Of a stretch of 64,000 nucleotides of DNA, positions 16,025-38,874 are shown piece after piece; within the stretch, counting starts at the first letter, position 1, and each line of letters begins with the position of its first letter. Source of the DNA: Gammaproteobacteria bacterium (GTDB lineage: Bacteria > Pseudomonadota > Gammaproteobacteria > GCA-001735895); contig JBNKPX010000001.1 of NCBI GenBank assembly GCA_050295575.1, positions 28,884-92,883 of the forward strand. Direction: 5' to 3'. The position numbers and the translations under genes are program-made. The notes under the pieces were generated by a model. The model was given only the letters and a program-made list of their open reading frames with translations. It searched no databases and was not told where the DNA came from.

Positions 16025-16041
16025 ACATTGAGGATTTAAAC

Positions 16042-16632: not shown

Positions 16633-16633
16633 C

Positions 16634-17089
16634 ATGAAGGTCTGGGTAGATGCAGATGCCTGCCCGGTAGTCATCAAGGAAATATTGTTTAAGGCTGCAC
16701 ACCGAACCGGGGTGCAGCTTACTCTGGTTGCAAACCAATCTATCAATGTTCCTGCTCTCAGCAATATTAAAATGCTCAGAGTCTCCTCGGGATTTGATGT
16801 AGCCGATAATGAAATTGTCAAACGTGTAGAACCTGGTGACCTGGTCATTACCAGTGATATCCCGCTGGCAGATGAGGTATTACAGGCCAAAGCAGTGGCC
16901 CTCAGTCCTCGCGGTGAATTATTCACTAAGGAAAATATCAAGAGCCGCCTGAATATGCGCGACTTTCTGGAATCCATGCGTGCAAGCGGAGTACAAACTG
17001 GCGGGCCAGCATCATTCAGTCAGAGTGATCGACAGACCTTTGCCAATGCTCTGGACAGGTACCTGACTCAGAATCTGAACGACTCCTAA
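16634..17089 (+). CDS. yaiI: YaiI/YqgE-type UPF0178 (DUF188) protein
   Basis: The hallmark N-terminus '[12 protein letters not shown]' is present. The gene starts 2 nt after the DUF3501 stop, so it is translationally coupled. Confidence 0.8.
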
Positions 17090-17180
17090 CGCCACTTTAT
17101 GTCCAAGCTGGCACTATAGAGTTCATGTTCTATAATATGTTTATCATCTAAATTATTGATAAACCAGACATTTATATAAC

Positions 17181-25477: not shown

Positions 25478-26449
25478 CTAACGTATTATGGTAGCTGTTT
25501 TAATCAATTCTGGCGCAAAAATTACACCTAGTTTCTGTCCTATATACAGATTTATAAATAAGCGCCCTTCCTTATTTTGCACGACAGGTATATCTGAGGG
25601 TCTAGTACCTTGCAGGATTCGTAGTACAGTTCTCGCAGCCCATCGTCCCTGCTCCTGTGGAATTTTGGCGATGGTAAACAAAGCATAGGGCGCCAACCAG
25701 ACATGCGTTGTACCAATAGGCACACGCGTATTTTGCTGCAGGAATGTTAGCCCCGATTTATTATCCCAGCCACTGATGCCTTTTGGATTTTCTAAAATGA
25801 CCATATCGACCTGGCTCTGTAATTCAACAATCTTTTGCTTCCATTCTGCGAAACTTTTGACAAAGAATGTTTTATCAAAACGTCGATTTAATTGTTTTTC
25901 AAAATACTCCGCGTTTCGTCGACCCGAAATTGCATCAATCGAGATCAGGCCAATTGAATCTCCTTTGGCATAAACACGCAGCTTCTTTGCAATTGACTTT
26001 ATCAGGGAAACCTCTTCCATACCGGTCACATTACGATATGGGAATCCATAGATAGATGAATCCCAGTTGACACCAGTAAATACAAAGGGAATTGATGAAT
26101 CCTTGAAATAGCGCTGAATTACATATTTTGCGGCATTGTCATCGGAGGTGATCACAACATCTGGATGGGAGGACTGGATTAAATCCCGCGCAGCCTCGGC
26201 AGCTGTCGCGATCTCTGAAATAGAGCGTTCACGCTTGCTATCCATATAGAATTTTTGCACTTCTACGCCCTGCCCTGCCAGTCCATCCTCGAGTCCTTTC
26301 TCGATTCCATCACTCCACTCATAACCCGGGTGATATGAATTGATAAAAAGCACTTTGGCGCCGTCGGCAGATACACTGCTTATGCCCAAAAAAAAGTACA
26401 ATATTCCGAGCAGATTTAGCAATCCCTGCCCTCTTCTAGCGTCTAACAT
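25478..26449 (-). CDS. periplasmic ABC-transporter substrate-binding-like protein (COG2984 family) paired with the sensor kinase
   Basis: Signal peptide and a type-I periplasmic binding fold ('VLFINSYHPGYEWSDG'). It lies immediately upstream in the same operon as the hybrid kinase, the usual COG2984 context. Confidence 0.7.
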   Translation of the reverse strand: MLDARRGQGLLNLLGILYFFLGISSVSADGAKVLFINSYHPGYEWSDGIEKGLEDGLAGQGVEVQKFYMDSKRERSISEIATAAEAARDLIQSSHPDVVITSDDNAAKYVIQRYFKDSSIPFVFTGVNWDSSIYGFPYRNVTGMEEVSLIKSIAKKLRVYAKGDSIGLISIDAISGRRNAEYFEKQLNRRFDKTFFVKSFAEWKQKIVELQSQVDMVILENPKGISGWDNKSGLTFLQQNTRVPIGTTHVWLAPYALFTIAKIPQEQGRWAARTVLRILQGTRPSDIPVVQNKEGRLFINLYIGQKLGVIFAPELIKTATIIR

Positions 26450-26744
26450 AAATGTCTATCCCTAACAGATTTTATCTCTACAATTATAGCACCAATAGTA
26501 GTGTTAGAAACAATAACTCTATGACCTGTGACAAAGAGTTTTTAAGTTGTCTATTGTCCGAAAAGATATATAAAATCATCAAGAATCACCGGCTGAACAC
26601 CGGTAATTCAGACCAGGGCCTTGTCTCTGTTCTTATCATCAATAGCCGCTATCGCTCTTTGACATCACTAGCGACGGCTCGGTGGTCTATAAATCTGGAT
26701 GAAACCCGCTGCCCTGTTACTGTCATAGTTCCTGGACAGCATTA

Positions 26745-27299
26745 CTACAGCCAGTACCTGGGATAATGACGCTCAGGATTAGATGAAAGATTATTAATCA
26801 GCAGTGCTACCAGCAGCATTATAAAAACTCCAGACATTACCGGTTGGAGTACATACCAGTAGCCCAGCTGCTGGATATTGTCACTACCAACGACAGCGAT
26901 TAATGCGGTTGCTCCGCCCGGTGGATGCAGGGTTTTGCTAACATGCATAAAAAAAATTGCCGTGGCTACAGATATTGCTCCCTGAACCTCTATAGGAAAG
27001 TCCAGCGTTTGCATGACCCAAACCCCAACTATGGCTGCAATTAAATGACCGCCGATCAGGTTTCTGGGTTGCGCATAAAAGGCATGCGGCGTTCCATAGA
27101 TGAGGACGGCAGATGCACCAAATGAGCCTATAAGGAGGACCTGATCATAAGGAGTAAGCGCTAGAAAGCGATTGATAAGGGCTGCCCCCAGAATACCGGT
27201 AAATGCACCAAGCCATGACCACAGCATCCAGCTAAATGGGTGAATGGGAGGGCTTTTAATACCCTGCCCTTTAAATCGTTTCAGGTATTTAGATAGCAT
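26745..27299 (-). CDS. HPP-family membrane protein
   Basis: 184 aa with four TM helices and the conserved HPPGGAT motif ('TLHPPGGATALIAV'). Confidence 0.75.
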   Translation of the reverse strand: MLSKYLKRFKGQGIKSPPIHPFSWMLWSWLGAFTGILGAALINRFLALTPYDQVLLIGSFGASAVLIYGTPHAFYAQPRNLIGGHLIAAIVGVWVMQTLDFPIEVQGAISVATAIFFMHVSKTLHPPGGATALIAVVGSDNIQQLGYWYVLQPVMSGVFIMLLVALLINNLSSNPERHYPRYWL

Positions 27300-27407
27300 G
27301 TGCTCATAGATTTGAGTGTACTCTTGTGAGCATCATATCTCAAAAAGGGGCCGTTATGGTGCATAAATTATAAGGATATTCGCTTCAGAGGGTTTTATTT
27401 TGATAAC

Positions 27408-28197
27408 AACGAAGGGCACGAAGAACACTAAGGAAGATATTCTTATTGGTATTGACTTATATTTGCTCTGATAAGTAGTGAATCAGGTTTTGATTTTATC
27501 CTGCAAAATTACACAAAACGGACATTCATTATTTTCATTCTAGCTGGTATGACTGCAGTTGATCTACGTGAGACATTCCCATTATTTGAAATGTTTAAAG
27601 AATATAACCACAGAGAACACAGGGAGCGCAGAGAAAAATATATTTTATATTTCGAGATTTGGTGTATTTGGTGGTTAGATCTATTTTAACTTGTACCTGA
27701 TAATCCTCTGGCAAGCCCCCTCCCCAGCAGAGGTAAACTGGTGGTGCTGACAACAAAAGAGGAGACTAGCGTATTCACAATCACCTTCGAATGGCACTGG
27801 CCCTATTAAAAACCTACCAAGACAGCCTGAAGAGTATCGCTGTTGAGACGACCTTACAAACCATGAGCAGATCACAGAACTTGCTCATATACTACAGCAA
27901 AATAACTTGCTTGGGTACGCGTTAAACCAACCGCTTTCGGCACCTACTTACCTATAGCATCGGAGAATATGATTGTCTGCTGTCAGAGTAAATCAGAACT
28001 ACTTCCTGAAAAGGCCTGATGTCATCTGAACTTATACATCTTATTAATACCTTACAAACTCTGTGTACTCTATTACCGAAGTGGTATAAATTCATTTTTT
28101 AATGATTAAAGCAAATTAGCAATAACAAATCCGATGTAATGTTTTAGTACCCGCATAAAGAATCTTTTTATCTTAGTGTTCTTCGTGCCCTTCGTGG
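27408..28197. mobile_element. MITE-like non-autonomous element, about 790 bp, bounded by perfect 24-bp terminal inverted repeats built from 'cacgaag' heptamers
   Basis: Left 'acgaagggcacgaagaacactaag' (27409-27432) is the exact reverse complement of right 'cttagtgttcttcgtgcccttcgt' (28173-28196). There is no ORF with transposase features inside. Its internal ends share sequence with the 210-bp repeats at 28173-28410 and 31049-31259. Confidence 0.55.
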
Positions 28198-28410
28198 TTA
28201 ACTTTTTTTACTACTACAAACAGACAAAACACACCAGAGAATATATTCTTATTCATGCATTGCAAACTCAGTGTCCTCTGTGATCTCAGTGGTTTAAATT
28301 GTCTTTTTAACTCCAAAGAAAACAAGCGGGCGATAACAGTCACAAACTCACTTTTTAAAACCACCCAAAAACATACCCTTCGTGTTCTTCGTGCACTTCG
28401 TGGTTAATCA
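28173..28410 (+). repeat. intergenic repeat copy A (about 210-240 bp, 'cttcgtgNNcttcgtggttaa' ends)
   Basis: About 85% identical to 31049-31259 in the same orientation. The shared core reads 'aatattcttattcat..caaactc.gtgtcctctgtgatctc.gtggtttaaatt.tcttttt..aaaacaagcgggcgataa..ttttttaaaaccacc..acccttcgtg.tcttcgtg..cttcgtggttaat'. Copy A ends 6 bp before the cysG stop. Confidence 0.7.
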
Positions 28411-28416
28411 AATCAA

Positions 28417-29817
28417 TCACTTGATCTCTTCACCCGGTTTAAACCAGTGCAGTTTTTTATGCAGCTCCACGACTTCTCCAACCACGATCAGGGTTGGCGC
28501 TTTTACATTATTTTTCTGCACCAGTCCGGGTAAGGTATTCAGGTCACCTATGAAAACGCGTTGATCAGGTGTGGTACCTTTCTCGATCAATGCTGCGGGT
28601 GTTGCTTCATCTCGCCCATGCTGTTTCAGGTTTTCACAGATCGCCTGTACATTATTCAGGCCCATATAAAAAACAACCGTCTGGTTGGAATGCGACAACA
28701 TATCCCAGTTCAGATCACTGGTACCATCCTTAAGGTGTCCAGTAACGAAGATACAGGCCTGGGCGAAGTCTCTATGTGTGAGTGGGATACCTGCATAGGT
28801 AGTACAACCCGAGGCAGCCGTAATACCCGGTACTACCTGAAATGGCACACCTTCATCGATCAATTCTGAAATCTCTTCACCGCCACGTCCGAAAATAAAG
28901 TTATCTCCCCCTTTCAGACGCAATACCCGCTTACCCTCTTTAGCCAGGCGAACCAGTAGCTGATTAATGTTTTCCTGCGCAATTGCGTGGTTAGATCGTT
29001 CTTTGCCAGCATATATACGCTCAGCATCGCGTCGTACCAGATCCATAATTGGGCCTGAGACCAGTCGGTCATAGACAATCACATCTGCCTTTTGCATCAG
29101 GCGCAAGGCACGAAAAGTCAGAAGATCAGGGTCACCCGGTCCCGCACCTACCAGAAAAACCTCACCGCTATAGCTGGGATCGGAATTGGCTTCTGTGATC
29201 AGCTTTTCTAGTAATTGACGTGCATCATCATTACGACCGGCAAACACATGCTCTGATACCGGGCCTTCAAGAATCGACTCCCAGAACTTGCGACGCTCTT
29301 CTACCCTTGGAAATGTCTGTTTTACTGATTCACGGTAAGATTCCACCAGCTTTGCAAGTTTGCCATAGGCTGATGGCGTGCAACTTTCTAGATTGGTGCG
29401 TATAAGGCGCGCCAGTACCGGAGATGCTCCGCCAGTCGAAACCGCTATCTGTACCGGGTCACGATTGATAATAGAAGGCATGATATAACTGCCCAGATCT
29501 GCATGATCGACCACATTGCAGGGAATTTTGAGTGCCTCTGCTTCTTCTGCGACGAGTCGGTTAACACTTTCATTATCTGTCGAAGCCACCACCAGATGCG
29601 CGTCTATTAAATCGCCGGCTTGGTATTCGCGCTCTATCCATTGAACCTTAGATTCCTTATGAAATAGCGCCATTTCCTGCCCTAGCTCGGGTGAGATGAC
29701 CGTAACCAGTGCGCCTGCAGAACAGAGTAAATCAGCCTTACGAGCGGCGATACCACCCGCGCCAACAACAATGCAAAGCTTATCGCGGATATTGAAAAAG
29801 ATAGGAAGATAATTCAT
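28417..29817 (-). CDS. cysG: Siroheme synthase (uroporphyrinogen-III C-methyltransferase / precorrin-2 dehydrogenase / sirohydrochlorin ferrochelatase)
   Basis: 466 aa. The N-terminal Rossmann motif 'IVGAGGIAARKA' marks the precorrin-2 dehydrogenase part. The C-terminal SUMT domain carries 'VFLVGAGPGDPDLLT' and 'LKGGDNFIFGRGGEE'. Confidence 0.9.
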   Translation of the reverse strand: MNYLPIFFNIRDKLCIVVGAGGIAARKADLLCSAGALVTVISPELGQEMALFHKESKVQWIEREYQAGDLIDAHLVVASTDNESVNRLVAEEAEALKIPCNVVDHADLGSYIMPSIINRDPVQIAVSTGGASPVLARLIRTNLESCTPSAYGKLAKLVESYRESVKQTFPRVEERRKFWESILEGPVSEHVFAGRNDDARQLLEKLITEANSDPSYSGEVFLVGAGPGDPDLLTFRALRLMQKADVIVYDRLVSGPIMDLVRRDAERIYAGKERSNHAIAQENINQLLVRLAKEGKRVLRLKGGDNFIFGRGGEEISELIDEGVPFQVVPGITAASGCTTYAGIPLTHRDFAQACIFVTGHLKDGTSDLNWDMLSHSNQTVVFYMGLNNVQAICENLKQHGRDEATPAALIEKGTTPDQRVFIGDLNTLPGLVQKNNVKAPTLIVVGEVVELHKKLHWFKPGEEIK

Positions 29818-29915
29818 GTTAAGGATCTACTGCCTCTATATAAGCGATTCATTATAGAGAATCTTTGGCATAACAACCAATAAAACTCCAACGGGTATTG
29901 CTTAAGCTACAAAAG

Positions 29916-31034
29916 TTACGATATCAGAGTGCTGATTTGAGCCTGCAAAGGGTCTGTTAGCGGTTTTAATTTTTTACGCATTACCGAACCCAATGCATCA
30001 GAAACCCCAAAAATCGGGTTGAGTGTCACTTCGCCCATCTGCGCGAGTATCAGCATAGCGCGGATTTGATCCTGATATTCCCCTGCCAACCTGATACAGG
30101 CCTGTAATTGCTCATCGCTGCTTTCAATTATCCAGTTTTTGGCAATTCTTTCCGCTTCTGCAAAATCTCTTTGCTTGATCGCTGATAAAGGTAATTCAGC
30201 ATGATAAGTACTGATCGCATGGAACATTGAAACAATGGTTTCCTGACTTGCAGCTTTATCGATTACCTGATTTACCGTTTTGAGAAAAGCCTGTCCAGCG
30301 GCGCTAAAGTAACGCTTGAGCTGTAATGCGTAAGCATTGCCCGCTTCGATGAGCGGATTTAGCGTAGCGAGTAATTCAGCGTATCTGACATGCTCGGGTA
30401 TCGCTTCAGGCAAATCATCCGGCATGCTATGTAAAAAGCCTACATACAGGCTTTGCTTACGTTTTGCCCGCTTCCATAAATCTTCAACCTCTTCGGGTTT
30501 GAGTAACTGCCGCTGCAGGCAGAGTCGTACCGAGTCAATCATATCCCGGTGTTCCACTTCAAATGGCAGAAACTCCAGCAGAAATTCGGCCAGTTCACGA
30601 CCCAGAGGCGACTCGACAATCTCACTTTTTTCCAGTAAACGGCGCGCATTATCCGCCGATGGATACGCCCACCAGGCATGTTGTGCAATCTCGGGGGACA
30701 GGCTGGGCGCATGCACCACCGCTACCACGGCCTCGGGTTCACCCAGCAGCAGTAATTGCGCAAGACTCTCTTCACGGCGCTCCTGCCCCATACGTGTCCA
30801 GCGTTTGATGTAAACAGGATACCCACCAGGTGAGCCCATGATCTTGCTGGATAACAGCTCCTTCACAATCTTAATGTACTTTTCATCCTTGCAGTTGGGG
30901 TTCAACTGAACCTTAACATCGCCTTTTGCGGTCAATGCATAGACAATCATTCTGGATTCATCAATGCGCACGGCTTTAAGGTCCTGCGCCAGCAGCACGT
31001 TTAATCGCAGGTTGTCTTCGTTGGATAGCTGCAT
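29916..31034 (-). CDS. hypothetical alpha-helical protein (372 aa), co-oriented upstream of cysG
   Basis: Long ORF with coding-like composition, flanked by repeat copy B upstream and cysG downstream. No family was recognised. Confidence 0.5.
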   Translation of the reverse strand: MQLSNEDNLRLNVLLAQDLKAVRIDESRMIVYALTAKGDVKVQLNPNCKDEKYIKIVKELLSSKIMGSPGGYPVYIKRWTRMGQERREESLAQLLLLGEPEAVVAVVHAPSLSPEIAQHAWWAYPSADNARRLLEKSEIVESPLGRELAEFLLEFLPFEVEHRDMIDSVRLCLQRQLLKPEEVEDLWKRAKRKQSLYVGFLHSMPDDLPEAIPEHVRYAELLATLNPLIEAGNAYALQLKRYFSAAGQAFLKTVNQVIDKAASQETIVSMFHAISTYHAELPLSAIKQRDFAEAERIAKNWIIESSDEQLQACIRLAGEYQDQIRAMLILAQMGEVTLNPIFGVSDALGSVMRKKLKPLTDPLQAQISTLIS

Positions 31035-31048
31035 ACTTTATTTATTAT

Positions 31049-31259
31049 TCACGAAAGTTATTAACCACGAAGGACACGAAGATCACGAAGGAAAATATTC
31101 TTATTCATACTTTTCAAACTCTGAGTCCTCTGTGATCTCTGTGGTTTAAATTATCTTTTTTAGCCCAAGAAAACGAACGGGCGATAATAATTACAGACTA
31201 TTTTTTTAAAACCACCAACAAACACACCCTTCGTGCTCTTCGTGTGCTTCGTGGTTAAT
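31049..31259 (+). repeat. intergenic repeat copy B (about 210 bp) with 33-bp imperfect terminal inverted repeats of 'cacgaag' heptamers
   Basis: Left 'attaaccacgaaggacacgaagatcacgaagg' against right 'cccttcgtgctcttcgtgtgcttcgtggttaat' (31/33 complementary). The body is about 85% identical to copy A. Confidence 0.7.
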
Positions 31260-31263
31260 TTTA

Positions 31264-32646
31264 TTAATTCAACTGAATCCGCTCCCCCCAGGGAACAGAT
31301 TTACGGCCTTTCACCAGCCAGATACTGGGATAGCTGGATTCGTATTCGGGAAACTTGCCTTCGGCATCGGTAAAGTAAATCAACAGGTCGGGACGAATAT
31401 CGTTTTCTTCCACCCATTCAAACACCGGACAGAAATCGGTACTGCCACCACCTATAACTCTCTGTGGTAACTGGCAATGCTCCCAGGCCTCGAAGGTCCA
31501 GGGGCTTTCTCCAGTGATTTTCGAGTCGCAGGTGATCAGGGTAACTCTAGATCTTACCTGCGCTTTTAGTGAATCTACCTCAGCTATAAATTCGTTTAAT
31601 TCATCCTGCTTAATCGACCCACTCACATCAACGGCCACCACTACATTCATCTGTGGGCTACGCAGGCTGGGATAGATCGCAGGATCACCACGTCGACTGG
31701 ATGGGCGGGTATAGCTGTAATCATCGCGCGCGATACTGTTCATATAGCGCGCCAGTAACACTCGCCAGGGCAAGGTAGGCTGTAGAAAGAAGTCAATCAT
31801 GCGAGCCATGCCTTCAGCCAGCTTACCTGCCTGTTGTGCCTGTTGTGCGGCGCCTGCCAGACGTTGCTGCCATTGCACCTGTAATTCGTCTTTTTCGCCT
31901 TCAGTTAAAGGCTCTGGTTGAGCAGTTTGAGACGGTTGCTCTGTTGCTTCAGTAGGATTCGGATGCTGCAGCTCTTCATCAGCATTATGTTTGGGCAAAC
32001 CTGATTTCTGTTGTTCTGGATCATGATCTCTATCCTGCCCCTGTCCTTCAGATTCGGAGGGTTTATCACCAGAAGACTTTTGCTCCTGTGGCTGTTCTCC
32101 CTGCCCCTCACCTCCTGACTCGGTTTTTTTGTCCTTCTGTTCAAGTGGATTTTGTTGCTTGTCCTGTCCACCTTCGCTGGTTTGATCCTGTTTGTCGTAG
32201 AGGTGTTGATCAAGTGTCTCTGAATGGTCGTTATCCTTGATCAGAGGATATATCTCTTCTGCAGTCATACCCTTGTACTCTTTCATCACCAAAGAGCCTG
32301 GTGGCGCTGTCAGGCCTTCGTCAAGCAGGATGGGGTTGATGGCATAATCACAGGCGATATCCCAGCGATGCTTAATACGATGACCACGCCGTGCAAAATG
32401 CGATAAGGCACAGTGTAGTGCTTCGTGAGCCAGTACAAACTGGGTTTCATCGTTCTTTAATGCTTCGATATATTCAGGGTTGTAATAAAACTTGCGCGCA
32501 TCGGTGCCAGTGGTTGGACACCATGCAGGGTCTGCTGCCTGCAACGGCAGGCGTAACACTAGCGCGCCCAGAAAGGGTTTATCCAGAATCAGACGCGTGC
32601 GTGCTGCACTGAGTTTATTTTCAATTGCTTCCAGTGGTTCCTGCAC
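31264..32646 (-). CDS. VWA-domain protein with an N-terminal DUF2201_N-type putative metallopeptidase domain (HExxH) and an acidic low-complexity linker
   Basis: 'LAHEALHCALSH' is an HExxH motif. The Q/E/D/G-rich linker 'QTSEGGQDKQQNPLEQKDKKTESGGEGQGEQPQEQKSSGDKPSESEGQGQDRDHDPEQQ' follows. The C-terminal VWA region has the MIDAS-like 'VVAVDVSGSI'. This is the COG3864-type partner of MoxR ATPases. Confidence 0.75.
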   Translation of the reverse strand: MQEPLEAIENKLSAARTRLILDKPFLGALVLRLPLQAADPAWCPTTGTDARKFYYNPEYIEALKNDETQFVLAHEALHCALSHFARRGHRIKHRWDIACDYAINPILLDEGLTAPPGSLVMKEYKGMTAEEIYPLIKDNDHSETLDQHLYDKQDQTSEGGQDKQQNPLEQKDKKTESGGEGQGEQPQEQKSSGDKPSESEGQGQDRDHDPEQQKSGLPKHNADEELQHPNPTEATEQPSQTAQPEPLTEGEKDELQVQWQQRLAGAAQQAQQAGKLAEGMARMIDFFLQPTLPWRVLLARYMNSIARDDYSYTRPSSRRGDPAIYPSLRSPQMNVVVAVDVSGSIKQDELNEFIAEVDSLKAQVRSRVTLITCDSKITGESPWTFEAWEHCQLPQRVIGGGSTDFCPVFEWVEENDIRPDLLIYFTDAEGKFPEYESSYPSIWLVKGRKSVPWGERIQLN

Positions 32647-32657
32647 AACGAGACGAC

Positions 32658-33701
32658 TTAATCGTAAAGGATGAGATCAGCAATCGAATCCGCCCATTCG
32701 GCGAATTGAGCGACCTCAAACAGATCGTTACCGATGGCTCGATGCATATCCGAAACCAGCATCACCCCCATTTCACGCTGAGGAAAACAGCTCGCGTACT
32801 TGAGGATATTGCCAAATACTGTGGATGCCTGATCACTGCCCTGAGCGCGTATGGCTCGGCCCACCAAAGCGGAGGCAACCGCATATTGAAGATCGATTTC
32901 ATCCGGGGCCTTGCTATCTTCTCCGCTAATGATCTTATCCAGATCCGGCATTTGATCCAAACTATCGATAAAGGCATGGCACTCAATACCCGCAGCCTGT
33001 CCGACACAGGCCTGTAGAGAGCCCAGTAAAAGATCTGGAAAGTCGATGAATTTCTGTAGGGCACGATGAGCATATTCCCAGGACCTTGGTGATGGGAAGG
33101 CAACCGGATTATGAGCGGGGTCAAAATCGAACAGTAATTCAGGGCGGAAACGTAAAAAACCGATAATACGTTCATCGATACCATTGCGATAAGCCCAGGC
33201 TACCCAGTCATCCAGATTGAGGTCGATCTGGTAATGCGAAAAACGGTTGGCTAAAGGTGCAGGCATGGCATAGGTAACACCGCGGTCGCCCTGTCGATTA
33301 CCCGCTGCAAAGATCGCCCAGCCCGGGGGTACCTGATAATTACCCAGTCGTCGATCCAGTATCAACTGGTAGGCGGCGGCAGAAACCGAAGGTGCTGCTG
33401 AATTGATTTCATCCAGAAACAATATGCCTGCCTCGCCATGTTGCTTTGCATCAGGCAACATAGAAGGCACGGCCCATTCGACCTTGTCATCTAGCTTGAA
33501 GGGAATACCGCGCAGGTCACTAGGTTCCATTTGCGATAATCGAATATCGATGACCGGTAGATCATGACGCTCGCCTATCTGCAGGATAATCTGTGATTTT
33601 CCAACCCCTGGGGGCCCCCACAGCATTACCGGGGTGTGGTGTCCTTTCTGTGTACTTAGAACCTCTTCATTGAGTACTCTGGCAAGATGAGCTGGACGCA
33701 T
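32658..33701 (-). CDS. MoxR-family AAA+ ATPase (AAA_5 / CbbQ-NorQ-like)
   Basis: Walker A 'GPPGVGKSQI', Walker B 'ILFLDEINSAAP' and sensor regions are present; length 347 aa. The gene starts 12 bp upstream of the VWA gene. Confidence 0.8.
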   Translation of the reverse strand: MRPAHLARVLNEEVLSTQKGHHTPVMLWGPPGVGKSQIILQIGERHDLPVIDIRLSQMEPSDLRGIPFKLDDKVEWAVPSMLPDAKQHGEAGILFLDEINSAAPSVSAAAYQLILDRRLGNYQVPPGWAIFAAGNRQGDRGVTYAMPAPLANRFSHYQIDLNLDDWVAWAYRNGIDERIIGFLRFRPELLFDFDPAHNPVAFPSPRSWEYAHRALQKFIDFPDLLLGSLQACVGQAAGIECHAFIDSLDQMPDLDKIISGEDSKAPDEIDLQYAVASALVGRAIRAQGSDQASTVFGNILKYASCFPQREMGVMLVSDMHRAIGNDLFEVAQFAEWADSIADLILYD

Positions 33702-34126
33702 TAAAAGCCTGCCCTGGCGTACAGTTCTTTAGCCTTTTCCTTGTCCTGTTCGACACCATTGCCTTCATCGTACATCATTGCCAGTGTGGTCAAAGACCCT
33801 ACCAGCCCCTGATCAGCGGCTTTAGTAAACCATTCGATGGCTTTCTGACTATCTTTTTCGACACAGTCGCCTTCCATATACATAAAACCCAGCCCATGCT
33901 GAGCCACCGCATGGCCCTGCTCGGCTGCAGTCTTCATCCAGTTGAAGGCTTCATCCGGTTTACGAACCATACCCAAACCATTCTGGTACATGATAGCCAC
34001 CCTGTGCTGGGCATCCGGATCGCCCTTCTCGGCAAATGGCACCAGAAACTGAGCGGCTCTTGCGAACTCTTTGGCTTCGAAAGCGGACATGCCGCTGATG
34101 AAATTCATATCGTTATCGCTAGGCAT
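33701..34126 (-). CDS. Sel1-repeat (SLR / TPR-like) protein
   Basis: Three or four Sel1 repeats ('AQHRVAIMYQNGLGMVRKPDEAFNWMKTAAEQGHAVAQHGLGFMYMEGDCVEKDSQKAIEWF..'). Its stop overlaps the MoxR start at 33701. Confidence 0.75.
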   Translation of the reverse strand: MPSDNDMNFISGMSAFEAKEFARAAQFLVPFAEKGDPDAQHRVAIMYQNGLGMVRKPDEAFNWMKTAAEQGHAVAQHGLGFMYMEGDCVEKDSQKAIEWFTKAADQGLVGSLTTLAMMYDEGNGVEQDKEKAKELYARAGF

Positions 34127-34360
34127 AATGATTAACCTGTTATATCAGTAAAGGATAGATAATAAGCATTATTTATTGATTGTCGAATACCCCTGATGGG
34201 GCGTTTACCTACAATGCGAGCACATTATCCCCCCAATAGGGATATTAAAAACCCTACAAACTTTCTATAAAGTACGCTCATTTTTCGTAGTGTGGTTACC
34301 ATTAACAGGCAAACTACATGTTTAATCGATCTTTTATTATCTGAATCTGAGGAGATTATT

Positions 34361-34552
34361 ATGGATCAAGCTTATCGTGACGCGACCACAAAGATGGAAG
34401 AAATGGGTGTACAGGAGCAATATATCATAGGCTGGCAAGGTGGTTACCTGGGTCATCCAGAGCGTGAAGAACAGCGTGTTAATGACGCTTATGCTGCAGG
34501 TTACGAAGACGGTCAGGAAAAAAATACTGACAACTTCGAAAACTGGAAGTAA
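34361..34552 (+). CDS. small acidic hypothetical protein (63 aa)
   Basis: An RBS 'gaggag' precedes the ATG at 34361. The track ORF starts upstream at 34292. Confidence 0.35.
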   Translation: MDQAYRDATTKMEEMGVQEQYIIGWQGGYLGHPEREEQRVNDAYAAGYEDGQEKNTDNFENWK

Positions 34553-34633
34553 TTACGGATAAAAGTATTCAATAAACCAACGGAGCAGATTATCCTGCTC
34601 CGTTAGTGCATATGCTTTACTGGAATCTGAACT

Positions 34634-35203
34634 ATGGCTGGTTCTACCCTCTTTTCTGGACACTCTTCCTACCTACGTCGTTACACCCAGTTATCCGCTG
34701 ATCAACTGGCGTCTATTGACGAGTTTCTGCAACAACAACTGAAAAGCTCTTCTTCTGACGTTTTACACAAAACCCATTTTTTTCATGGGCGTTATGAGAA
34801 CATATATATCAATCGTAATAGCCACCCTGACCTCAAAGAACTGGTCAACGAAGCCCTCAATGTTGCCGCGAGTATTCTAGATATAGATGTCGATGAGCTA
34901 TGTGTTGGTTTCTGGTTTAACTACATGCCTCCTGGTCATTTGACCACCCAGCATACCCATGATGATATAGATGAACTGCTTTCTGGCGTTATCTATATAA
35001 CGGTGCCAGAGGATTCTGGCAATCTGGTACTTAACACCAAAGATGAACAGATTGAGTTGAAACCTGTGCAGGGAAACTATGTGTTTTTTGCTCCCAGCAC
35101 ACCACATTCAGTAAATGAAAATCGCTCTGACAAATCTCGATTATCCATTGGAATGAATTTTGGTCTGTGCAAAAATAGAGCCAAAGTCTTTGCTGATTTT
35201 TAA
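34634..35203 (+). CDS. 2OG-Fe(II) oxygenase superfamily protein (TIGR02466-like)
   Basis: 189 aa with the 'HTHDD...H' HxD..H iron-binding facial triad ('QHTHDDIDE', 'STPHSV'). Confidence 0.5.
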   Translation: MAGSTLFSGHSSYLRRYTQLSADQLASIDEFLQQQLKSSSSDVLHKTHFFHGRYENIYINRNSHPDLKELVNEALNVAASILDIDVDELCVGFWFNYMPPGHLTTQHTHDDIDELLSGVIYITVPEDSGNLVLNTKDEQIELKPVQGNYVFFAPSTPHSVNENRSDKSRLSIGMNFGLCKNRAKVFADF

Positions 35204-35209
35204 TTCGCC

Positions 35210-35914
35210 TCAGTTTATAAGCGAGCCGCTTTCTACCCCGATAAATCGATAACCTACTCCCGCCACCGTCTCTATATATTGTGGATTGGTGGGATCGTCT
35301 TCCAGTTTACCTCTCAAGCGACCGATAATCACTCTCAGATAATGACTATCTTCCGTGTGGTGTGGCCCCCAGATATCTCGTAGCAAATGCTGCTGGGTGA
35401 GTATTTTGCCAGGATAACTGATCAGTCTTTTCAGTAACTCATACTCTTTTTTCGACAGATGAACCTCTTCATCAGCCAGTAGCACACGGCGGTTTAACAG
35501 ATCTACTTTAAGATGTTCATCATCAAAACCGGTGGGAGGTTTTTCGATACCGGAAAAGGTTCTAAGTACAGCGCGTATGCGTGCCAGTAACTCATTCACC
35601 GCAAATGGCTTCTCGACATAATCGTTACAGCCATTATCCAGTGCCATCACCTTTTCTCGCTCACTATCGCGCACCGATAGTACGATGACGGGGCCTTTGT
35701 AAAAATCGCGCAAACCTTTCAGCACTTCCTGACCATCCATATCCGGCAGGCCTAGATCCAGTACGATCAGCTCGGGGTTTTCCAGTGCCGCCAGCTCCAG
35801 GCCAGAATGACCATCACCCGCTTCCAGGATAGAATAGCCCTGCGAGCCCAGGCTGATGTTTAAAAAGCGACGAATCTGTGGCTCGTCTTCAATTATCAGT
35901 ATGCTTGTCATCAT
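35210..35914 (-). CDS. kdpE: OmpR-family response regulator, KdpE-like
   Basis: REC domain ('ILIIEDEPQIRRFL..DLGLPDMDG') plus a winged-helix trans_reg_C domain ('IETVAGVGYRF'). It overlaps the upstream kinase by 26 bp. Confidence 0.8.
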   Translation of the reverse strand: MMTSILIIEDEPQIRRFLNISLGSQGYSILEAGDGHSGLELAALENPELIVLDLGLPDMDGQEVLKGLRDFYKGPVIVLSVRDSEREKVMALDNGCNDYVEKPFAVNELLARIRAVLRTFSGIEKPPTGFDDEHLKVDLLNRRVLLADEEVHLSKKEYELLKRLISYPGKILTQQHLLRDIWGPHHTEDSHYLRVIIGRLRGKLEDDPTNPQYIETVAGVGYRFIGVESGSLIN

Positions 35915-37409
35915 TGGTTTCCTGAGCGGATTGTCGAGCCTCTTTAAGCGGGAGTGAAATTCTTAAGGTAGTGCCTTCTTCGCTACTGCTCTGAATCACC
36001 GAAGCAAGCCCACCATGCGCACCGAGTATACCCTGGCAGATGGCCAGACCTAGCCCCGTGCCTGCTGAGTCCTGATCTCCATGCGCAAAGGTGAAGAACA
36101 TATCAAAAATACTATTCCAGCTATCTTGTGGTATCACCGGGCCATAGTTGTGAATATCGATCTGTAATCGATCGCCTGTCGAACAGGCCTTGATGGTGAT
36201 AGAGGTATCCTTCGGTGCGTAACGGATAGCATTCTCTAATACGTTAAAAACCGCCTGCTCTATCAGTGCTGGATGGACATGCAGCAAAGGCAGATCGGAT
36301 TGTAAATCGACCTTAATGCTACTGCCGTTGAGCAGGCTTTTACAGCGCTTGATGACAACACTGAGTATATCGTCTATACCGACCCAGTCACGATCCAGAG
36401 ATAACTCACCATGCCCCAGACGGGTCATATCCAGCAGTTTCTGAATATAGCGATTCAGGCGTTGTGCTTCACTCAGGGTATTTTGCAATAACTCTTCCTG
36501 CTGTAAGATATCCAGCGCATCATGGAGCTCGATCAGCGTAGAAACAGAACCTATCATGGTCGCCAGCGGTGTGCGTAAATCATGCGATATAGAAGACAGT
36601 AAAGCCGAACGTAACTGCTCACGCTCTTTCACCAGAGTTTCTGAACGCAACACTTCATTTAATACCACTCGACTCCATGCCAGACGTGCCAGCCCGGTAA
36701 AACCTTCCAGTTGATGCTTTTGTCCATTATCCAGTGCTGATGAAAGCTGAATCACTATCTGCCCCAGACAGTCTCCAAGACTACAGAAGGCAATCAACAC
36801 AGATTGATTGTGTATAACGAGCAATACCTCTGCCACCGAATCGCTACTTTCAGGCACTGATTCATGCAACGGAACCGGAAGCTCACCACAAAGCAATCGA
36901 AATTCATCTGTCGCATTGTCTCGATATAAAACAACGCTATTAATGTCAAAACTGGTTTGCAGATGTTGCTCCAGAATCCTGATCACCGACTCACCATTAA
37001 CACAACTGGATAGCTCCTCAGCCAGCATCATTTGTTGCTTGTTCCAGCGATCGCTATCCTCCAGTGCAACTACCTGTTCGCGTAAACGTGCTGCCAGATG
37101 CCCGGTAACGAAGGCTACCAGCATAAACAGTGCAATGGTCAGGATATCCTGCTGATGCACCATATAAAAACTGAAGTGCGGCTCAAAATGGAAAAAGTTA
37201 TACGCCAGAAAGCTCAATACAGCGCAGGCCAGGGCTGGTTTAACACGGGTAAATACAGCAGTAAATAAAACTCCAGCCAGGTAAATCATGGAGTAATGCG
37301 CTTTGGGCAAGATAGGCGATAATGCCCAGGAAATTAATGTGGCCAGCAAAGGTGTTAGCCAGGGCATCACCCAGAAAAGAATTCTATCGCGTGCGGAGTA
37401 AGGGTGCAT
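35889..37409 (-). CDS. KdpD-like sensor histidine kinase lacking the N-terminal KdpD/Usp cytoplasmic sensor (membrane domain + GAF-like + HisKA + HATPase only)
   Basis: 506 aa starting directly with a four-TM DUF4118-like block. HisKA 'SHDLRTPLATMIG' and HATPase '[12 protein letters not shown]' follow. Canonical KdpD is about 890 aa. Confidence 0.8.
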   Translation of the reverse strand: MHPYSARDRILFWVMPWLTPLLATLISWALSPILPKAHYSMIYLAGVLFTAVFTRVKPALACAVLSFLAYNFFHFEPHFSFYMVHQQDILTIALFMLVAFVTGHLAARLREQVVALEDSDRWNKQQMMLAEELSSCVNGESVIRILEQHLQTSFDINSVVLYRDNATDEFRLLCGELPVPLHESVPESSDSVAEVLLVIHNQSVLIAFCSLGDCLGQIVIQLSSALDNGQKHQLEGFTGLARLAWSRVVLNEVLRSETLVKEREQLRSALLSSISHDLRTPLATMIGSVSTLIELHDALDILQQEELLQNTLSEAQRLNRYIQKLLDMTRLGHGELSLDRDWVGIDDILSVVIKRCKSLLNGSSIKVDLQSDLPLLHVHPALIEQAVFNVLENAIRYAPKDTSITIKACSTGDRLQIDIHNYGPVIPQDSWNSIFDMFFTFAHGDQDSAGTGLGLAICQGILGAHGGLASVIQSSSEEGTTLRISLPLKEARQSAQETNDDKHTDN

Positions 37410-37416
37410 GGCCTGC

Positions 37417-38874
37417 TTATCGCTTCCAGAAAACTGTAGAGAATAATACGATTACACTCAACAGTTCCAGTCGTCCAAGAATCATTGCAAAAGATAGTGT
37501 CCATTTTGCGCTATCAGGCAGCGGTGCAAAGTTGCCCGCAGGACCGATAATATCCCCTAAACCTGGGCCAACATTGGTTAAGGCAGTCACAGAACCGGTA
37601 AAACTGGTGACAAAGTCCACTCCAAATGCCGTTAGCAATAATGTGGTGATCGCCAGCGCAATAAAGAACATAAAGGAAAAGGCAATCGCCGATGCGGTGA
37701 TGTCGTCTTCGATGCGTTTGCCATTATATTTGATCAGAAATATGCCATGTGGATGGACCTGTTTCTTTAACTGGTTTAAAAGAAATAGAAAAGATAGCTG
37801 AAAGCGGAATACCTTCATCCCGCCACTGGTAGAACCCGAGCAGCCACCGATAAAGGTCACGATAAAAAACAATGCAATACTGAATTGCCCCCAGTGGGTA
37901 TAATCAGAAGAAGCATATCCAGTCGTAGTGATTACCGATGTGATATTAAATGCCGCCTGAGTCAGGGCCTCAAACGGAGGCAAGGTGTTTACCGACATCA
38001 ACTGCAGCGTCAATAAAGCAATGATGCTAGCGGTTATCAGTAAGAATCCCATGACCTGTTGATCGACCCGGTGATGTATAGAGCGAGTGGTAAAATAGCG
38101 GATAAAAAAGGTTAAAGGCAGTGCACCTGCCATCATGAAGATTACCGATATCCATAGTATTATGGGGCCGAAGCGCGCCATAGAGCGATCATCAGTCGCA
38201 TAGCCACCGGTTGAAACCGTCGTCATCGCATGATTCACGGCATCAAAGATCGACATTCCTCCCATCCAGTAACTCACTGCACATAACAGGGTAATTAACA
38301 GATAACTGAGCAGTAAGGCTCGCGCCAGACCGTGAAACTTGGGCAGAGATTTTTCAGACCAGTCAGATGATTCGGTCTGGAATAGCTTCATCCCCCCTAT
38401 CTGTAAAAAAGGCAGAATCGAAACCGCCATCCCTATCACGCCCAGGCCACCGACCCATTGTAGTAAAGAGCGCCACAAAAGTATGCTACGTGGCAGGGTT
38501 TGCAGATGGCTCATCACCGTTGAGCCCGTTGTGGTAATCCCTGAAACCGATTCAAATACCGCATCAACCAGCGACAGGGGGTGATGTGCGAAAACAAGCG
38601 GCAATGAGCCCGCAAGCGACAGCAGTATCCAGCTAAAAGTAGTGAGTAGATATAGCTGACGGGTAGCCAGTGTGATTCTGGATGAGCTGAATAGCAGGAT
38701 CAGGGTTAAACCTGTAACGGCCGTTACTGCCGCAGAATCAAGAAAAGGCTGTAACTCCTGATCATGGGTGAAATAGGCAAATCCAGCGGGCAGCAACATT
38801 AATGCGGCCATAATTAAGGCCAATATCCCACAAATGTAGAGGATAGGCCGTAAAAGCTTAATCATCGCAATCAA
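37417..38874 (-). CDS. trkH: TrkH/KtrB-family potassium transporter
   Basis: 485 aa of polytopic membrane protein with repeated selectivity-filter-like glycine motifs ('TGFTT'-type 'TTTGST', 'STGGYA', 'TTTGYA', 'SGSTSGGMK'). Confidence 0.85.
   Translation of the reverse strand: MIAMIKLLRPILYICGILALIMAALMLLPAGFAYFTHDQELQPFLDSAAVTAVTGLTLILLFSSSRITLATRQLYLLTTFSWILLSLAGSLPLVFAHHPLSLVDAVFESVSGITTTGSTVMSHLQTLPRSILLWRSLLQWVGGLGVIGMAVSILPFLQIGGMKLFQTESSDWSEKSLPKFHGLARALLLSYLLITLLCAVSYWMGGMSIFDAVNHAMTTVSTGGYATDDRSMARFGPIILWISVIFMMAGALPLTFFIRYFTTRSIHHRVDQQVMGFLLITASIIALLTLQLMSVNTLPPFEALTQAAFNITSVITTTGYASSDYTHWGQFSIALFFIVTFIGGCSGSTSGGMKVFRFQLSFLFLLNQLKKQVHPHGIFLIKYNGKRIEDDITASAIAFSFMFFIALAITTLLLTAFGVDFVTSFTGSVTALTNVGPGLGDIIGPAGNFAPLPDSAKWTLSFAMILGRLELLSVIVLFSTVFWKR

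What the first reader, a model, noticed from the sequence alone, without database searches (positions are those of the whole stretch)
31264..34126. Translationally coupled Sel1-repeat / MoxR AAA+ / VWA-metallopeptidase (HExxH) triad in an accessory context
Three genes are tightly coupled: the Sel1 stop overlaps the MoxR start (33701), and there is a 12-bp gap to the VWA gene. They encode a Sel1-repeat protein, a MoxR-class AAA+ ATPase and a VWA protein. The VWA protein has an intact HExxH putative peptidase domain and a 60-aa acidic Q/E/G-rich linker.

MoxR-VWA pairs are largely uncharacterised chaperone-like systems. Related vWA-MoxR modules have been proposed as NTP-dependent conflict/defence systems. 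The Sel1 third partner and the placement beside mobile repeats, between core genes and the accessory half of the window, make this a candidate undescribed system.
Basis: partly seen in the sequence, partly recalled or inferred. Interest (0 to 1): 0.6.

Follow-up and report, generated by a model that had tools for sequence, protein, structure and literature searches.

The report
Sulfur-oxidiser MoxR ATPase / VWA-zincin operon
The three genes are real. They are not a mobile or defence module but a conserved, uncharacterised AAA+ ATPase / VWA-metallopeptidase pair of sulfur-oxidising Gammaproteobacteria, sitting among genes for oxidising stored sulfur (Alvin_2107, DsrS, siroheme synthase).

Summary
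Three co-directional minus-strand genes encode a 3-repeat Sel1 protein, an AAA_5/MoxR ATPase and a DUF2201_N+DUF2201 protein. The last has an M48-like HExxHxxxxH zincin lobe, a ~90-aa acidic Q/E/G linker and a VWA domain with a complete MIDAS motif. Sel1 and MoxR overlap by 1 nt; the MoxR-VWA gap is 11 nt.

The "accessory/defence" reading does not hold.
- The 80 best related loci, among at least 576 relatives in one-genome-per-species bacterial and archaeal contigs, are almost all sulfur oxidisers where named (Thiothrix, Thiocapsa, Thiohalophilus, Sedimenticolaceae and others).
- MoxR lies next to VWA in 65/68 loci, at 71-77% identity across orders.
- The divergent upstream gene is an Alvin_2107-family "globule sulfur oxidation" gene (33/60 loci).
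- The downstream 372-aa gene belongs to a family NCBI calls DsrS (30/70 loci), followed by cysG.
- In Chromatiaceae the pair is followed by an M48 peptidase and soxYZ. That is the Allochromatium vinosum Alvin_2107|2108-2112 order, so the pair is probably Alvin_2108/2109.
- PADLOC and the bpMoxR Pfam model gave no significant match, and no close relative turned up in IMG/VR.

Best reading: a cytoplasmic ATP-driven remodelling or processing machine serving sulfur oxidation. Its target is unknown. It is moderately interesting as a testable lead, not a new kind of system.

The parts
33701..34126 (-). Sel1-repeat protein, 141 aa, three Sel1 repeats, no signal peptide or TM segment. Probable adaptor and first gene of the operon.
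   Evidence: ORF. PF08238, 108 bits, 3 stretches. Max 19-aa hydropathy 0.68. Orthologues at 60-94% identity sit upstream of MoxR in 22/63 loci.
32658..33701 (-). MoxR-class AAA+ ATPase (AAA_5), 347 aa. Walker A is GPPGVGKS and Walker B is ILFLDE. Its ATG shares one base with the Sel1 stop codon.
   Evidence: A 14-sequence profile matches midasin AAA modules best (54.9 bits), then CbbQ (24) and NorQ (21). It is 71-77% identical across orders and lies next to VWA in 65/68 loci.
31264..32646 (-). VWA-zincin protein, 460 aa (DUF2201_N + DUF2201). GTG start 11 nt after the MoxR stop.
   Evidence: AF2 model with pLDDT 67.9; the N lobe and VWA domain are mostly at about 80-90. Fold hits are to VWA domains and selecase.
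32398..32427 (-). HExxHxxxxH motif (H74 E75 A L H78 C A L S H83) on the predicted active-site helix 65-84.
   Evidence: Sequence. Invariant in A1 and A3. Conserved in 123-135 of 136 diverse homologues. Aligns with the M48 peptidase HEIAHVxxxH in hhalign, probability 93.9%, E 1.6e-7.
31927..32196 (-). Acidic Q/E/G/D-rich disordered linker (residues 151-240) inserted inside the DUF2201_N region.
   Evidence: pLDDT below 50. Composition 22 D+E against 10 K+R, with 17 Q. Length varies from 6 to 135 aa (median 39) across the family. Sequence is not conserved.
31615..31629 (-). MIDAS motif D340-V-S342-G-S344 of the VWA domain. T403 and D427 complete it.
   Evidence: D340 135/136, S342 136/136, S344 136/136, T403 135/136, D427 135/136.
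29916..31034 (-). DsrS-like protein, 372 aa, no Pfam or NCBIfam match. Co-directional downstream gene, probably in the same operon.
   Evidence: Its 53%-identical homologue cluster P0355 is named 'sulfur reduction protein DsrS' by NCBI. GenBank uses the same label for the dsr-operon dsrS of T. bogorovii, which that paper pairs with Alvin_1265 dsrS. It lies downstream of VWA in 30/70 loci and.
28417..29817 (-). CysG siroheme synthase, 466 aa. Next co-directional gene.
   Evidence: Pfam TP_methylase, NAD_binding_7, CysG_dimeriser, Sirohm_synth_M. It sits in the same position in L003, L004, L024, L054 and L076 and in L081-L084 and L090.
34361..34552 (+). Alvin_2107-family small acidic protein, transcribed divergently from the triad. 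About 63 aa from M24; the ORF opens at 34292.
   Evidence: NCBIfam NF049856, 96.4 bits against a cut-off of 60. Homologues are 63-66 aa. It is divergent upstream of MoxR in 33/60 loci.
34634..35203 (+). 2OG-Fe(II) oxygenase-like protein (TIGR02466-related, below cut-off) after the Alvin_2107 gene.
   Evidence: Conserved in L001-L004. A different 2OG oxygenase plus DUF6866 accompanies Alvin_2107 elsewhere.
34159..34186 (-). Best sigma-70-like promoter match in the region (TCGACA-16-TATTAT, 10 of 12), 33 nt upstream of the Sel1 ATG.
   Evidence: This is a consensus match only, and the number of sites in the region is not above the shuffle expectation.
31060..31259 (.). MITE-like ~200-bp element with 32-nt terminal inverted repeats, inserted in the VWA to DsrS-like spacer.
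   Evidence: Inverted repeat I3, 94% complementary; related copies at 27389-28421. In many relatives the spacer is 10-50 bp.

Best explanation
The triad is the local form of a vertically conserved, cytoplasmic two-component machine of sulfur-oxidising Gammaproteobacteria. It pairs a MoxR-class AAA+ ATPase with a partner that fuses an M48-like zincin lobe to a MIDAS-bearing VWA domain through an acidic tether. The pair is probably orthologous to Allochromatium vinosum Alvin_2108/2109.

In this lineage the operon gained a Sel1 adaptor in front. It continues into a DsrS-like gene and cysG, and it is transcribed divergently from an Alvin_2107-family gene. NCBI's family name for Alvin_2107 ties it to oxidation of stored sulfur globules.

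Inferred mechanism, by analogy with CbbQ/CbbO, NorQ/NorD and midasin. The ATPase ring docks the VWA protein. The MIDAS site grips a carboxylate on a client protein. ATP hydrolysis remodels that client while the zincin lobe cleaves it or otherwise processes it. The client is most likely a component of the cytoplasmic sulfur-oxidation (reverse Dsr) pathway or its cofactor supply.

Shown here: the gene architecture, the intact motifs, the conservation and the synteny. Inferred: the ATPase-VWA interaction, the proteolysis and the identity of the client.
For: Domains and motifs.

Zincin homology. hhalign against M48 gives 93.9% probability. The selecase match is weak. The AF2 N lobe shows helices, a 3-stranded sheet and an HExxH helix.

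VWA fold hits include ArnB, Ro60 and the NorQD complex.

Taxonomy. In the 80 best of at least 576 relatives, nearly every locus named to genus or family is a sulfur oxidiser.

Synteny counts: MoxR-VWA 65/68, Alvin_2107 33/60, DsrS-like 30/70, Sel1 22/63, M48 13/69, SoxYZ 10/58. At least one sulfur-linked neighbour occurs in 33/46 loci with enough flank.

Reciprocal look-ups. Starting from Alvin_2107 homologues recovers cysG-DsrS-like-DUF2201-AAA_5-Sel1 beside DsrC, DsrL-like and NIR_SIR genes. Starting from DsrS-like homologues recovers the pair.

Thiocapsa marina has the order Alv2107|MoxR-VWA-M48-SoxY-SoxZ. This matches A. vinosum, where Alvin_2110 is an M48 peptidase, 2111/2112 are SoxYZ, and 'cluster one' is Alvin_2108-2112.

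All five proteins lack TM segments or signal peptides.
Against: - No experiment or expression data for the pair could be retrieved. The key A. vinosum papers are not held.
- In Thiothrix, Cocleimonas and Leucothrix loci the pair stands alone: 13/46 loci have no sulfur-linked neighbour.
- 2 of 5 Alvin_2107 homologues examined lack the pair nearby.
- The wider family is very large, with 19,246 50%-identity clusters, and occurs in N4-like, rV5-like and jumbo phages next to nucleotide-metabolism genes. The biochemical activity is therefore generic and is not sulfur chemistry.
- M48 and SoxYZ, the neighbours in Chromatiaceae, are periplasmic, while the pair is cytoplasmic.
- The DsrS assignment rests on NCBI naming and length, not on a direct alignment to Alvin_1265.
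Confidence: 0.6

Rival explanations
1. NorQD/CoxDE/chelatase-like cofactor maturase. The pair inserts or repairs a metal or tetrapyrrole cofactor, for example siroheme or Fe-S in DsrAB. The HExxH site would act as a metal-handling site rather than a protease.
For: cysG (siroheme synthase) follows the DsrS-like gene here and in L003, L004, L024, L054, L076, L081-L084 and L090. The ATPase has weak CobS-type (phrog_249) and NorQ/CbbQ similarity. NorQD appears among the fold hits. Characterised MoxR-VWA pairs mostly mature or reactivate metalloenzymes (my own knowledge).
Against: The catalytic Glu of HExxH is conserved in 123/136 homologues, which points to hydrolysis rather than mere metal binding. 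There is no large chelatase subunit nearby. cysG lies within 7 kb in only 8/62 loci. There is no Pfam match to CobT, NorD or CoxE VWA families.
Confidence: 0.2
2. General-purpose cytoplasmic remodeller or protease with no specific link to sulfur metabolism. On this view the synteny with sulfur genes is inherited gene order in related lineages.
For: The pair occurs alone in Thiotrichaceae loci. The family is huge and also phage-borne. The neighbouring genes differ between clades: DsrS-like/cysG in some, M48/SoxYZ in others.
Against: The subfamily's best 80 loci are nearly all sulfur oxidisers where named. The divergent pairing with Alvin_2107 persists across Chromatiaceae, Sedimenticolaceae, Thioalkalispiraceae and the window's clade while other neighbours change. 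That pattern is typical of functional coupling.
Confidence: 0.13
3. One reading: an accessory vWA-MoxR NTP-dependent conflict or anti-phage system.
For: MoxR+vWA architecture. Weak P-loop-level hits to IetA, DolB and IteA. Homologous pairs exist in phages. A MITE-like repeat lies next to the VWA gene, and a T6SS/TPS region lies in the same window.
Against: No PADLOC family match beyond E about 5e-4 on roughly 40 residues. bpMoxR scores below its cut-off. There is no effector, beta-propeller or VMAP gene. MoxR is 71-77% identical across orders with stable synteny to metabolic genes. No close relative exists in 2.9 million viral contigs; the best is 37-38% identical. The MITE is absent from relatives.
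Confidence: 0.05

Closest known systems
Allochromatium vinosum Alvin_2108/Alvin_2109, beside Alvin_2107 and soxYZ
   Same: The gene order Alv2107(-)|MoxR-VWA-M48-SoxY-SoxZ in Thiocapsa marina and other Chromatiaceae and Sedimenticolaceae matches the published numbering: Alvin_2110 is an M48 peptidase, 2111/2112 are SoxYZ, and 'cluster one' is Alvin_2108-2112. The window's proteins are 75% (MoxR) and 59% (VWA) identical to the T. marina ones.
   Different: Orthology to the A. vinosum genes themselves is inferred, because their sequences could not be fetched. The window's version has Sel1 in front and DsrS-like/cysG behind instead of M48/soxYZ. No function has been reported for 2108/2109 in any text I could reach.
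NorQ/NorD and CbbQ/CbbO (MoxR AAA+ with a VWA adaptor; enzyme maturation or reactivation)
   Same: An adjacent AAA_5-type ATPase gene and a MIDAS-VWA gene embedded among metabolic genes. Remote sequence similarity: CbbQ 24 bits, NorQ 21 bits. A NorQD complex chain is among the fold hits.
   Different: NorD and CbbO have no zincin lobe. No nor or Rubisco genes are adjacent. There is no Pfam match to their VWA families. The ATPase is closer to midasin modules than to CbbQ or NorQ.
Midasin/Rea1
   Same: It gives the best solved-structure sequence match for the ATPase (54.9 bits). Its logic is an AAA_5 ring plus a MIDAS domain joined by an acidic D/E-rich linker, used to pull on a client (my own knowledge).
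   Different: Midasin is a single ~5000-aa eukaryotic polypeptide acting in ribosome assembly. Here there are two small bacterial proteins, with the acidic linker in the VWA partner and an added zincin lobe.
M48 zinc peptidases (HtpX/BepA/Ste24) and minigluzincins (selecase)
   Same: The N lobe aligns with M48 over 92 columns including HExxHxxxxH (hhalign 93.9%, E 1.6e-7). There are weak selecase hits by sequence (E 0.17) and by fold (probability 0.90, target-normalised TM-score (TMt) 0.44).
   Different: It is soluble, fused to a VWA domain, and its fold is interrupted by a long acidic linker. The third zinc ligand is not identified; invariant D100 is a candidate.
vWA-MoxR conflict systems (bpMoxR ternary systems)
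   Same: MoxR plus vWA gene pair.
   Different: bpMoxR scores 18.7 bits against a cut-off of 27. There is no third effector or beta-propeller component and no PADLOC match. The chromosomal context is conserved and metabolic.
ATPase + DUF2201 pair of N4-like (Schitoviridae), rV5-like and jumbo phages (PHROG 1297 + 1314)
   Same: The same two-gene module and domain architecture: PHROG E 3e-92 and 1e-89. 679 phage records hold a match, and the ATPase is adjacent in phage ECBP1.
   Different: Identity is only about 25-37%. The phage context is early or nucleotide-metabolism genes. The function is unknown there too, and the genes are often mislabelled 'HNH endonuclease'.

Membership tests
DUF2201_N + DUF2201 (VWA-zincin) family | Both Pfam models matched above their gathering scores | tested here: met
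   PF13203 159.1 bits against 23.2; PF09967 82.6 bits against 26.4.
DUF2201_N + DUF2201 (VWA-zincin) family | Conserved HExxH metal site and zincin-type core | tested here: met
   H74, E75, H78 and H83 are invariant in close relatives and conserved in 123-135 of 136 diverse ones. hhalign to M48 gives 93.9%. The AF2 N lobe mostly has pLDDT around 80-90.
DUF2201_N + DUF2201 (VWA-zincin) family | VWA fold with a complete MIDAS motif (DxSxS...T...D) | tested here: met
   D340, S342, S344, T403 and D427 are conserved in at least 135/136. Foldseek hits to the VWA domains of ArnB VWA2, Cav alpha2delta and Ro60.
MoxR-class AAA+ (AAA_5) ATPase paired with a VWA protein | AAA_5 match with Walker A and Walker B motifs | tested here: met
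   PF07728 41.7 bits against 22. GPPGVGKS and ILFLDE.
MoxR-class AAA+ (AAA_5) ATPase paired with a VWA protein | Conserved adjacency to a VWA gene | tested here: met
   65/68 loci.
MoxR-class AAA+ (AAA_5) ATPase paired with a VWA protein | Hexameric ATPase that physically binds the VWA partner | not testable with these tools
   Needs biochemistry or multimer modelling.
vWA-MoxR conflict/defence systems | Match to defence-system models (PADLOC, bpMoxR) | tested here: not met
   PADLOC's best hit is E 5e-4 over 37 residues of the P-loop. bpMoxR scores 18.7 bits, below the cut-off of 27.
vWA-MoxR conflict/defence systems | Associated effector, beta-propeller or VMAP component, and a variable island-like context | tested here: not met
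   The neighbours are Sel1, DsrS-like, cysG, Alvin_2107 and a 2OG oxygenase. Synteny is conserved in relatives.
CbbQ/NorQ-type activase next to its substrate enzyme | Close sequence relationship to CbbQ/NorQ and adjacency to Rubisco or NO reductase | tested here: not met
   Only 21-24 bits to CbbQ and NorQ. No such enzyme lies within the window region. The pair may still work like these systems.
Class I chelatase (BchI/BchD, CobS/CobT) | Large catalytic H or N subunit, and a CobT/BchD-type VWA protein | tested here: not met
   No such Pfam match or gene nearby. Only weak phrog_249 similarity for the ATPase.
Alvin_2107 family (the neighbouring gene) | NCBIfam NF049856 above its cut-off | tested here: met
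   96.4 bits against 60.
DsrS (the downstream gene) | Homology to the dsr-operon DsrS (Alvin_1265) | tested here: inconclusive
   A 53%-identical cluster is named DsrS by NCBI, and GenBank uses the same label for the dsr-operon dsrS of T. bogorovii, which that paper pairs with Alvin_1265. No NCBIfam or Pfam model matches, and Alvin_1265 itself was not aligned.

The most novel reading that the evidence does not exclude
The MoxR / VWA-zincin pair, with DsrS and in some lineages a Sel1 adaptor, is a dedicated ATP-dependent maturation or repair protease of the reverse-Dsr stored-sulfur oxidation pathway. It would work together with Alvin_2107. This would give the first physiological role both to DsrS and to the very large DUF2201 family, including the conserved ATPase+VWA pair of N4-like phages.
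Probability: 0.25. Interest if true: 0.65.

Novelty: new variant of a known kind. Interest (0 to 1): 0.42.

Why it matters
How stored sulfur is mobilised and fed into the cytoplasmic Dsr pathway is still incompletely understood. As I recall it, Alvin_2107 is required for that step in A. vinosum and DsrS affects its rate, but neither has a known mechanism.

A conserved AAA+ / MIDAS / zincin machine is genomically tied to both proteins across several orders of sulfur oxidisers. That gives a concrete, genetically testable candidate for a missing maturation or remodelling step. A. vinosum is genetically tractable, and Alvin_2108/2109 are the obvious targets.

It would also give a first functional foothold for a family of more than 19,000 sequence clusters that is widespread in phages.

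For the scan itself, the result shows that this locus should not be counted as a defence-island candidate.

Tried and rejected
**Defence reading.** PADLOC gave no real hits. The IMG/VR scan with subfamily patterns found only two relatives at 37-38% identity. Rejected.

**RNA elements.** The Rfam scan of 26000-36000 found nothing.

**Promoters and terminators.** The scan gave no enrichment over shuffles. There is one good promoter-like site upstream of Sel1 and no terminator inside the triad.

**Solved relatives.** None exists for the VWA-zincin protein.

**Literature.**
- Searches for DUF2201, PF13203 and COG3864 found nothing functional.
- MoxR + sulfur + dsr found nothing relevant.
- The Weissgerber 2013 and 2014 papers and the Grimm 2011 paper are not held.
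- Supplements of two transcriptome papers do not hold the relevant locus tags.

**NCBIfam.** No model matches the DsrS-like protein even at E 10.

**Chelatase, CoxE or NorD membership.** Considered and rejected for lack of any family match or partner subunit.


Full report
**1. The observation**

The region holds three co-directional minus-strand ORFs.
- 33701-34126 encodes a 141-aa protein with three Sel1 repeats (PF08238, 108 bits).
- 32658-33701 encodes a 347-aa AAA_5 ATPase (41.7 bits against a cut-off of 22). Its Walker A is GPPGVGKS and its Walker B is ILFLDE.
- 31264-32646 encodes a 460-aa protein matching DUF2201_N ('putative metallopeptidase', E 2e-46) and DUF2201 ('VWA-like', E 3e-23).

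The Sel1 stop and the MoxR ATG share base 33701 (TAATG). The VWA gene starts at a GTG 11 nt after the MoxR stop, not 12.

HExxH (H74-E75-A-L-H78, followed by H83) and a full MIDAS motif (D340-x-S-x-S344, T403, D427) are present. The low-complexity acidic stretch is about 90 aa (residues 151-240) rather than 60. It holds 17 Q, 13 E, 10 G and 9 D, and its pLDDT is below 50.

None of the proteins has a hydrophobic segment or a signal-like N-terminus, so the system is cytoplasmic.

**2. Motifs across homologues**

It is not degenerate.

The exhaustive representative search finds 19,246 50%-identity clusters at E<=1e-3, of which 3,638 reach E<=1e-30. I aligned 136 full-length representatives at 31-59% identity.
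- H74 is kept in 131, E75 in 123, H78 in 135 and H83 in 132.
- An invariant D100 (135) and N104 (133) sit on the next helix.
- The MIDAS residues are kept in 135-136.
- The linker is not conserved and ranges from 6 to 135 residues (median 39).

A 69-sequence AlphaFold model has mean pLDDT 67.9, with the N lobe and VWA domain mostly around 80-90. The N lobe shows helices, a three-stranded sheet and a long HExxH helix.

Foldseek against the PDB returns VWA domains (ArnB VWA2, Cav alpha2delta, Ro60, a NorQD complex chain). For the N lobe it returns the minigluzincin selecase (probability 0.90, TMt 0.44). All of these have weak E-values.

A profile-profile comparison of the N lobe with the M48 peptidases found in related loci gives 93.9% probability and E 1.6e-7 over 92 columns. 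It aligns HExxHxxxxH with the M48 HEIAHVxxxH. The zincin assignment is therefore supported, with an M48-like core.

**3. The ATPase**

No close solved relative exists. A 14-sequence profile matches midasin AAA modules best (54.9 bits), then CbbQ (24 bits) and NorQ (21 bits). It belongs to the AAA_5 / MoxR-midasin group but to none of the characterised subfamilies.

**4. Context in the window**

The divergent upstream gene (34361-34552, +) is an Alvin_2107-family protein. NCBIfam NF049856, 'globule sulfur oxidation protein', scores 96.4 bits against a cut-off of 60.

Downstream of the VWA gene there is a 229-bp spacer containing a MITE-like element with 32-nt terminal inverted repeats. A 372-aa protein without any Pfam or NCBIfam match follows. 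Its 53%-identical homologues are named 'sulfur reduction protein DsrS' by NCBI. GenBank uses the same label for the T. bogorovii gene that the paper pairs with A. vinosum Alvin_1265 dsrS in its table of Dsr genes.

Next come cysG (siroheme synthase) and an HPP-family gene.

The T6SS and two-partner-secretion genes that make the right half of the window look 'accessory' begin about 8 kb away. They lie beyond a two-component system, trkH and a transporter gene.

**5. Related loci**

A scan of one genome per species found at least 576 relatives. In the 80 best, essentially every locus named to genus or family is a sulfur-oxidising gammaproteobacterium. The names include Thiothrix, Thiolinea, Cocleimonas, Leucothrix, Thiohalophilus, Thioalkalispiraceae, Thiohalomonadales, Thiocapsa, Thiohalocapsa, Chromatiaceae, Sedimenticola and Sedimenticolaceae. 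The one odd label is a 2.5-kb 'Planctomycetota' contig.

tblastn synteny gave these identities:
- MoxR is 71-77% identical across these orders.
- VWA is 53-61% identical across these orders.

Counts among loci with enough flank:

| Neighbour | Loci |
|---|---|
| MoxR next to VWA | 65/68 |
| Alvin_2107, divergent upstream | 33/60 |
| DsrS-like downstream | 30/70 |
| Sel1 upstream | 22/63 |
| M48 peptidase downstream | 13/69 |
| SoxY and SoxZ downstream | 10/58 |

33/46 well-flanked loci have at least one sulfur-linked neighbour. The 13 exceptions include the Thiothrix, Cocleimonas and Leucothrix loci, plus several MAGs named only at higher rank.

The 1-nt Sel1/MoxR overlap is confined to the window's own clade (L001-L004). 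Elsewhere the gap is 56-366 bp.

**6. Reciprocal checks**

Starting from Alvin_2107 homologues, 3 of 5 proteins examined lie beside the same block: cysG - ~370-aa protein - DUF2201 - AAA_5 - Sel1. In some genomes this block is within a few kb of DsrC paralogues, a DsrL-like gene and a NIR_SIR gene. The other two lack the pair.

Starting from DsrS-named homologues, both examined lie directly downstream of AAA_5 + DUF2201.

In Thiocapsa marina and other Chromatiaceae and Sedimenticolaceae the order is Alvin_2107(-) | MoxR - VWA - M48 - SoxY - SoxZ. This matches the A. vinosum numbering in the literature: Alvin_2110 is 'Peptidase M48', 2111/2112 are SoxYZ, and 'cluster one' is Alvin_2108-2112. 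The pair is therefore very probably orthologous to Alvin_2108/2109. This is an inference, because those sequences could not be fetched.

In T. bogorovii and A. vinosum the dsrS locus tags follow directly on dsrR, dsrN and dsrP in the Dsr gene table. That fits its absence from the pair's neighbourhood in the Chromatiaceae loci.

**7. Against the defence/accessory reading**

- PADLOC gives only short P-loop matches.
- The bpMoxR model is below threshold.
- No effector-type third gene is present.
- The subfamily has no close relative in IMG/VR; the best are 37-38% identical.
- The phage homologues (679 records: N4-like, rV5-like, jumbo) are all below 60% identity by tblastn. In the 25 records listed, taken at even steps down the ranking, identity was about 25-37%. 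They sit among early or nucleotide-metabolism genes.
- The MITE-like repeat is an insertion into a spacer that is only 10-50 bp in many relatives.
- GC of the triad (0.48-0.50) is only slightly above the window average.

**8. Mechanism**

Shown:
- an AAA_5 ATPase gene conserved next to a MIDAS-VWA gene;
- an M48-like zincin lobe with the catalytic Glu conserved;
- a variable acidic tether;
- cytoplasmic location;
- persistent genomic linkage with Alvin_2107, DsrS-like, cysG, DsrC/DsrL or SoxYZ genes.

Inferred from the characterised MoxR-VWA pairs and midasin (my own knowledge of CbbQO, NorQD, Rea1): the ATPase ring binds the VWA partner, the MIDAS site clamps a carboxylate of a client, ATP hydrolysis remodels the client, and the zincin lobe cleaves or processes it. 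The acidic linker could act as a flexible tether or as an intramolecular MIDAS ligand.

The most likely field of action is the cytoplasmic oxidation of stored sulfur, meaning the reverse Dsr pathway or its cofactor supply. From memory, Weissgerber et al. 2014 reported that deleting Alvin_2107 impairs oxidation of sulfur globules. The paper could not be opened here.

The client is unknown. A non-proteolytic, NorQD-like cofactor-insertion role is the main alternative, in view of the cysG adjacency.

**9. Novelty and verdict**

The locus is an orthologue of thousands of database proteins, and the domain families are in Pfam, so the genes themselves are not new. The function of this VWA-zincin/MoxR type is undescribed in the literature I could search. 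Its consistent embedding in the sulfur-oxidation neighbourhood also appears not to have been discussed, beyond being lumped into 'sox cluster one' in the A. vinosum genome paper.

I class it as a new variant of a known kind (MoxR-VWA remodellers). Interest is moderate. It is a good, testable lead for sulfur-oxidation biology, but it is neither a defence system nor a categorically new one.

Noticed in passing
window 31060-31259; related copies 27389-28421: A MITE-like ~200-bp element with 32-nt terminal inverted repeats (94% complementary, CACGAAG-rich) lies in the VWA to DsrS-like spacer. Related copies or fragments lie between the HPP gene and cysG. When translated they create spurious 'NHEGHEEH' ORFs.
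   Followed up: partly
window 42067-63816: An accessory-looking block holds DUF2169 (43767-44759), VgrG (45351-47312), a ShlB/FhaC-type transporter (48098-50032) and a 4552-aa ORF (50158-63816) that is probably its two-partner-secretion exoprotein.
   Followed up: partly
L081-L086, L091, L035, L046, L049, L071, L077: Alvin_2107 homologues are often accompanied by a 183-204-aa protein with no family match, a DUF6866 protein and a 2OG-Fe(II) oxygenase; all three were present in one of the two loci that lack the MoxR-VWA pair. This looks like a second uncharacterised conserved module of sulfur oxidisers.
   Followed up: partly
L010, L015, L025, L029, L067 (downstream of the DsrS-like gene): In Thioalkalispiraceae and Thiohalophilus-type loci the DsrS-like gene is followed by a 179-aa unknown protein and a protein that by sequence looks like a glutaredoxin. 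EgtB-like and EgtD-like genes (judged from sequence only, not scanned against Pfam) come next, hinting at a low-molecular-weight thiol link.
   Followed up: no
PHROG 1314; phage records H5, H6, H10, H13, H17, H18, H20, H25: The phage homologues of the VWA-zincin protein are widely annotated 'HNH endonuclease'. The family is DUF2201_N+DUF2201 (HExxH zincin plus VWA), so this looks like a propagated mis-annotation.
   Followed up: partly
L086 7106-7489; L001 about 12700-17750: The conserved operon tolerates small insertions. A PDDEXK_3 gene lies between MoxR and VWA in L086. About 5 kb holding three extra ORFs lies between the DsrS-like gene and cysG in L001, the window's 93%-identical relative.
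   Followed up: no
window 35210-38874: Three adjacent genes look like a potassium-homeostasis cluster but were not scanned against any family library. They are a response-regulator-like gene, a 506-aa histidine-kinase-like gene whose N-terminal half looks membrane-embedded, and a TrkH-like transporter.
   Followed up: no
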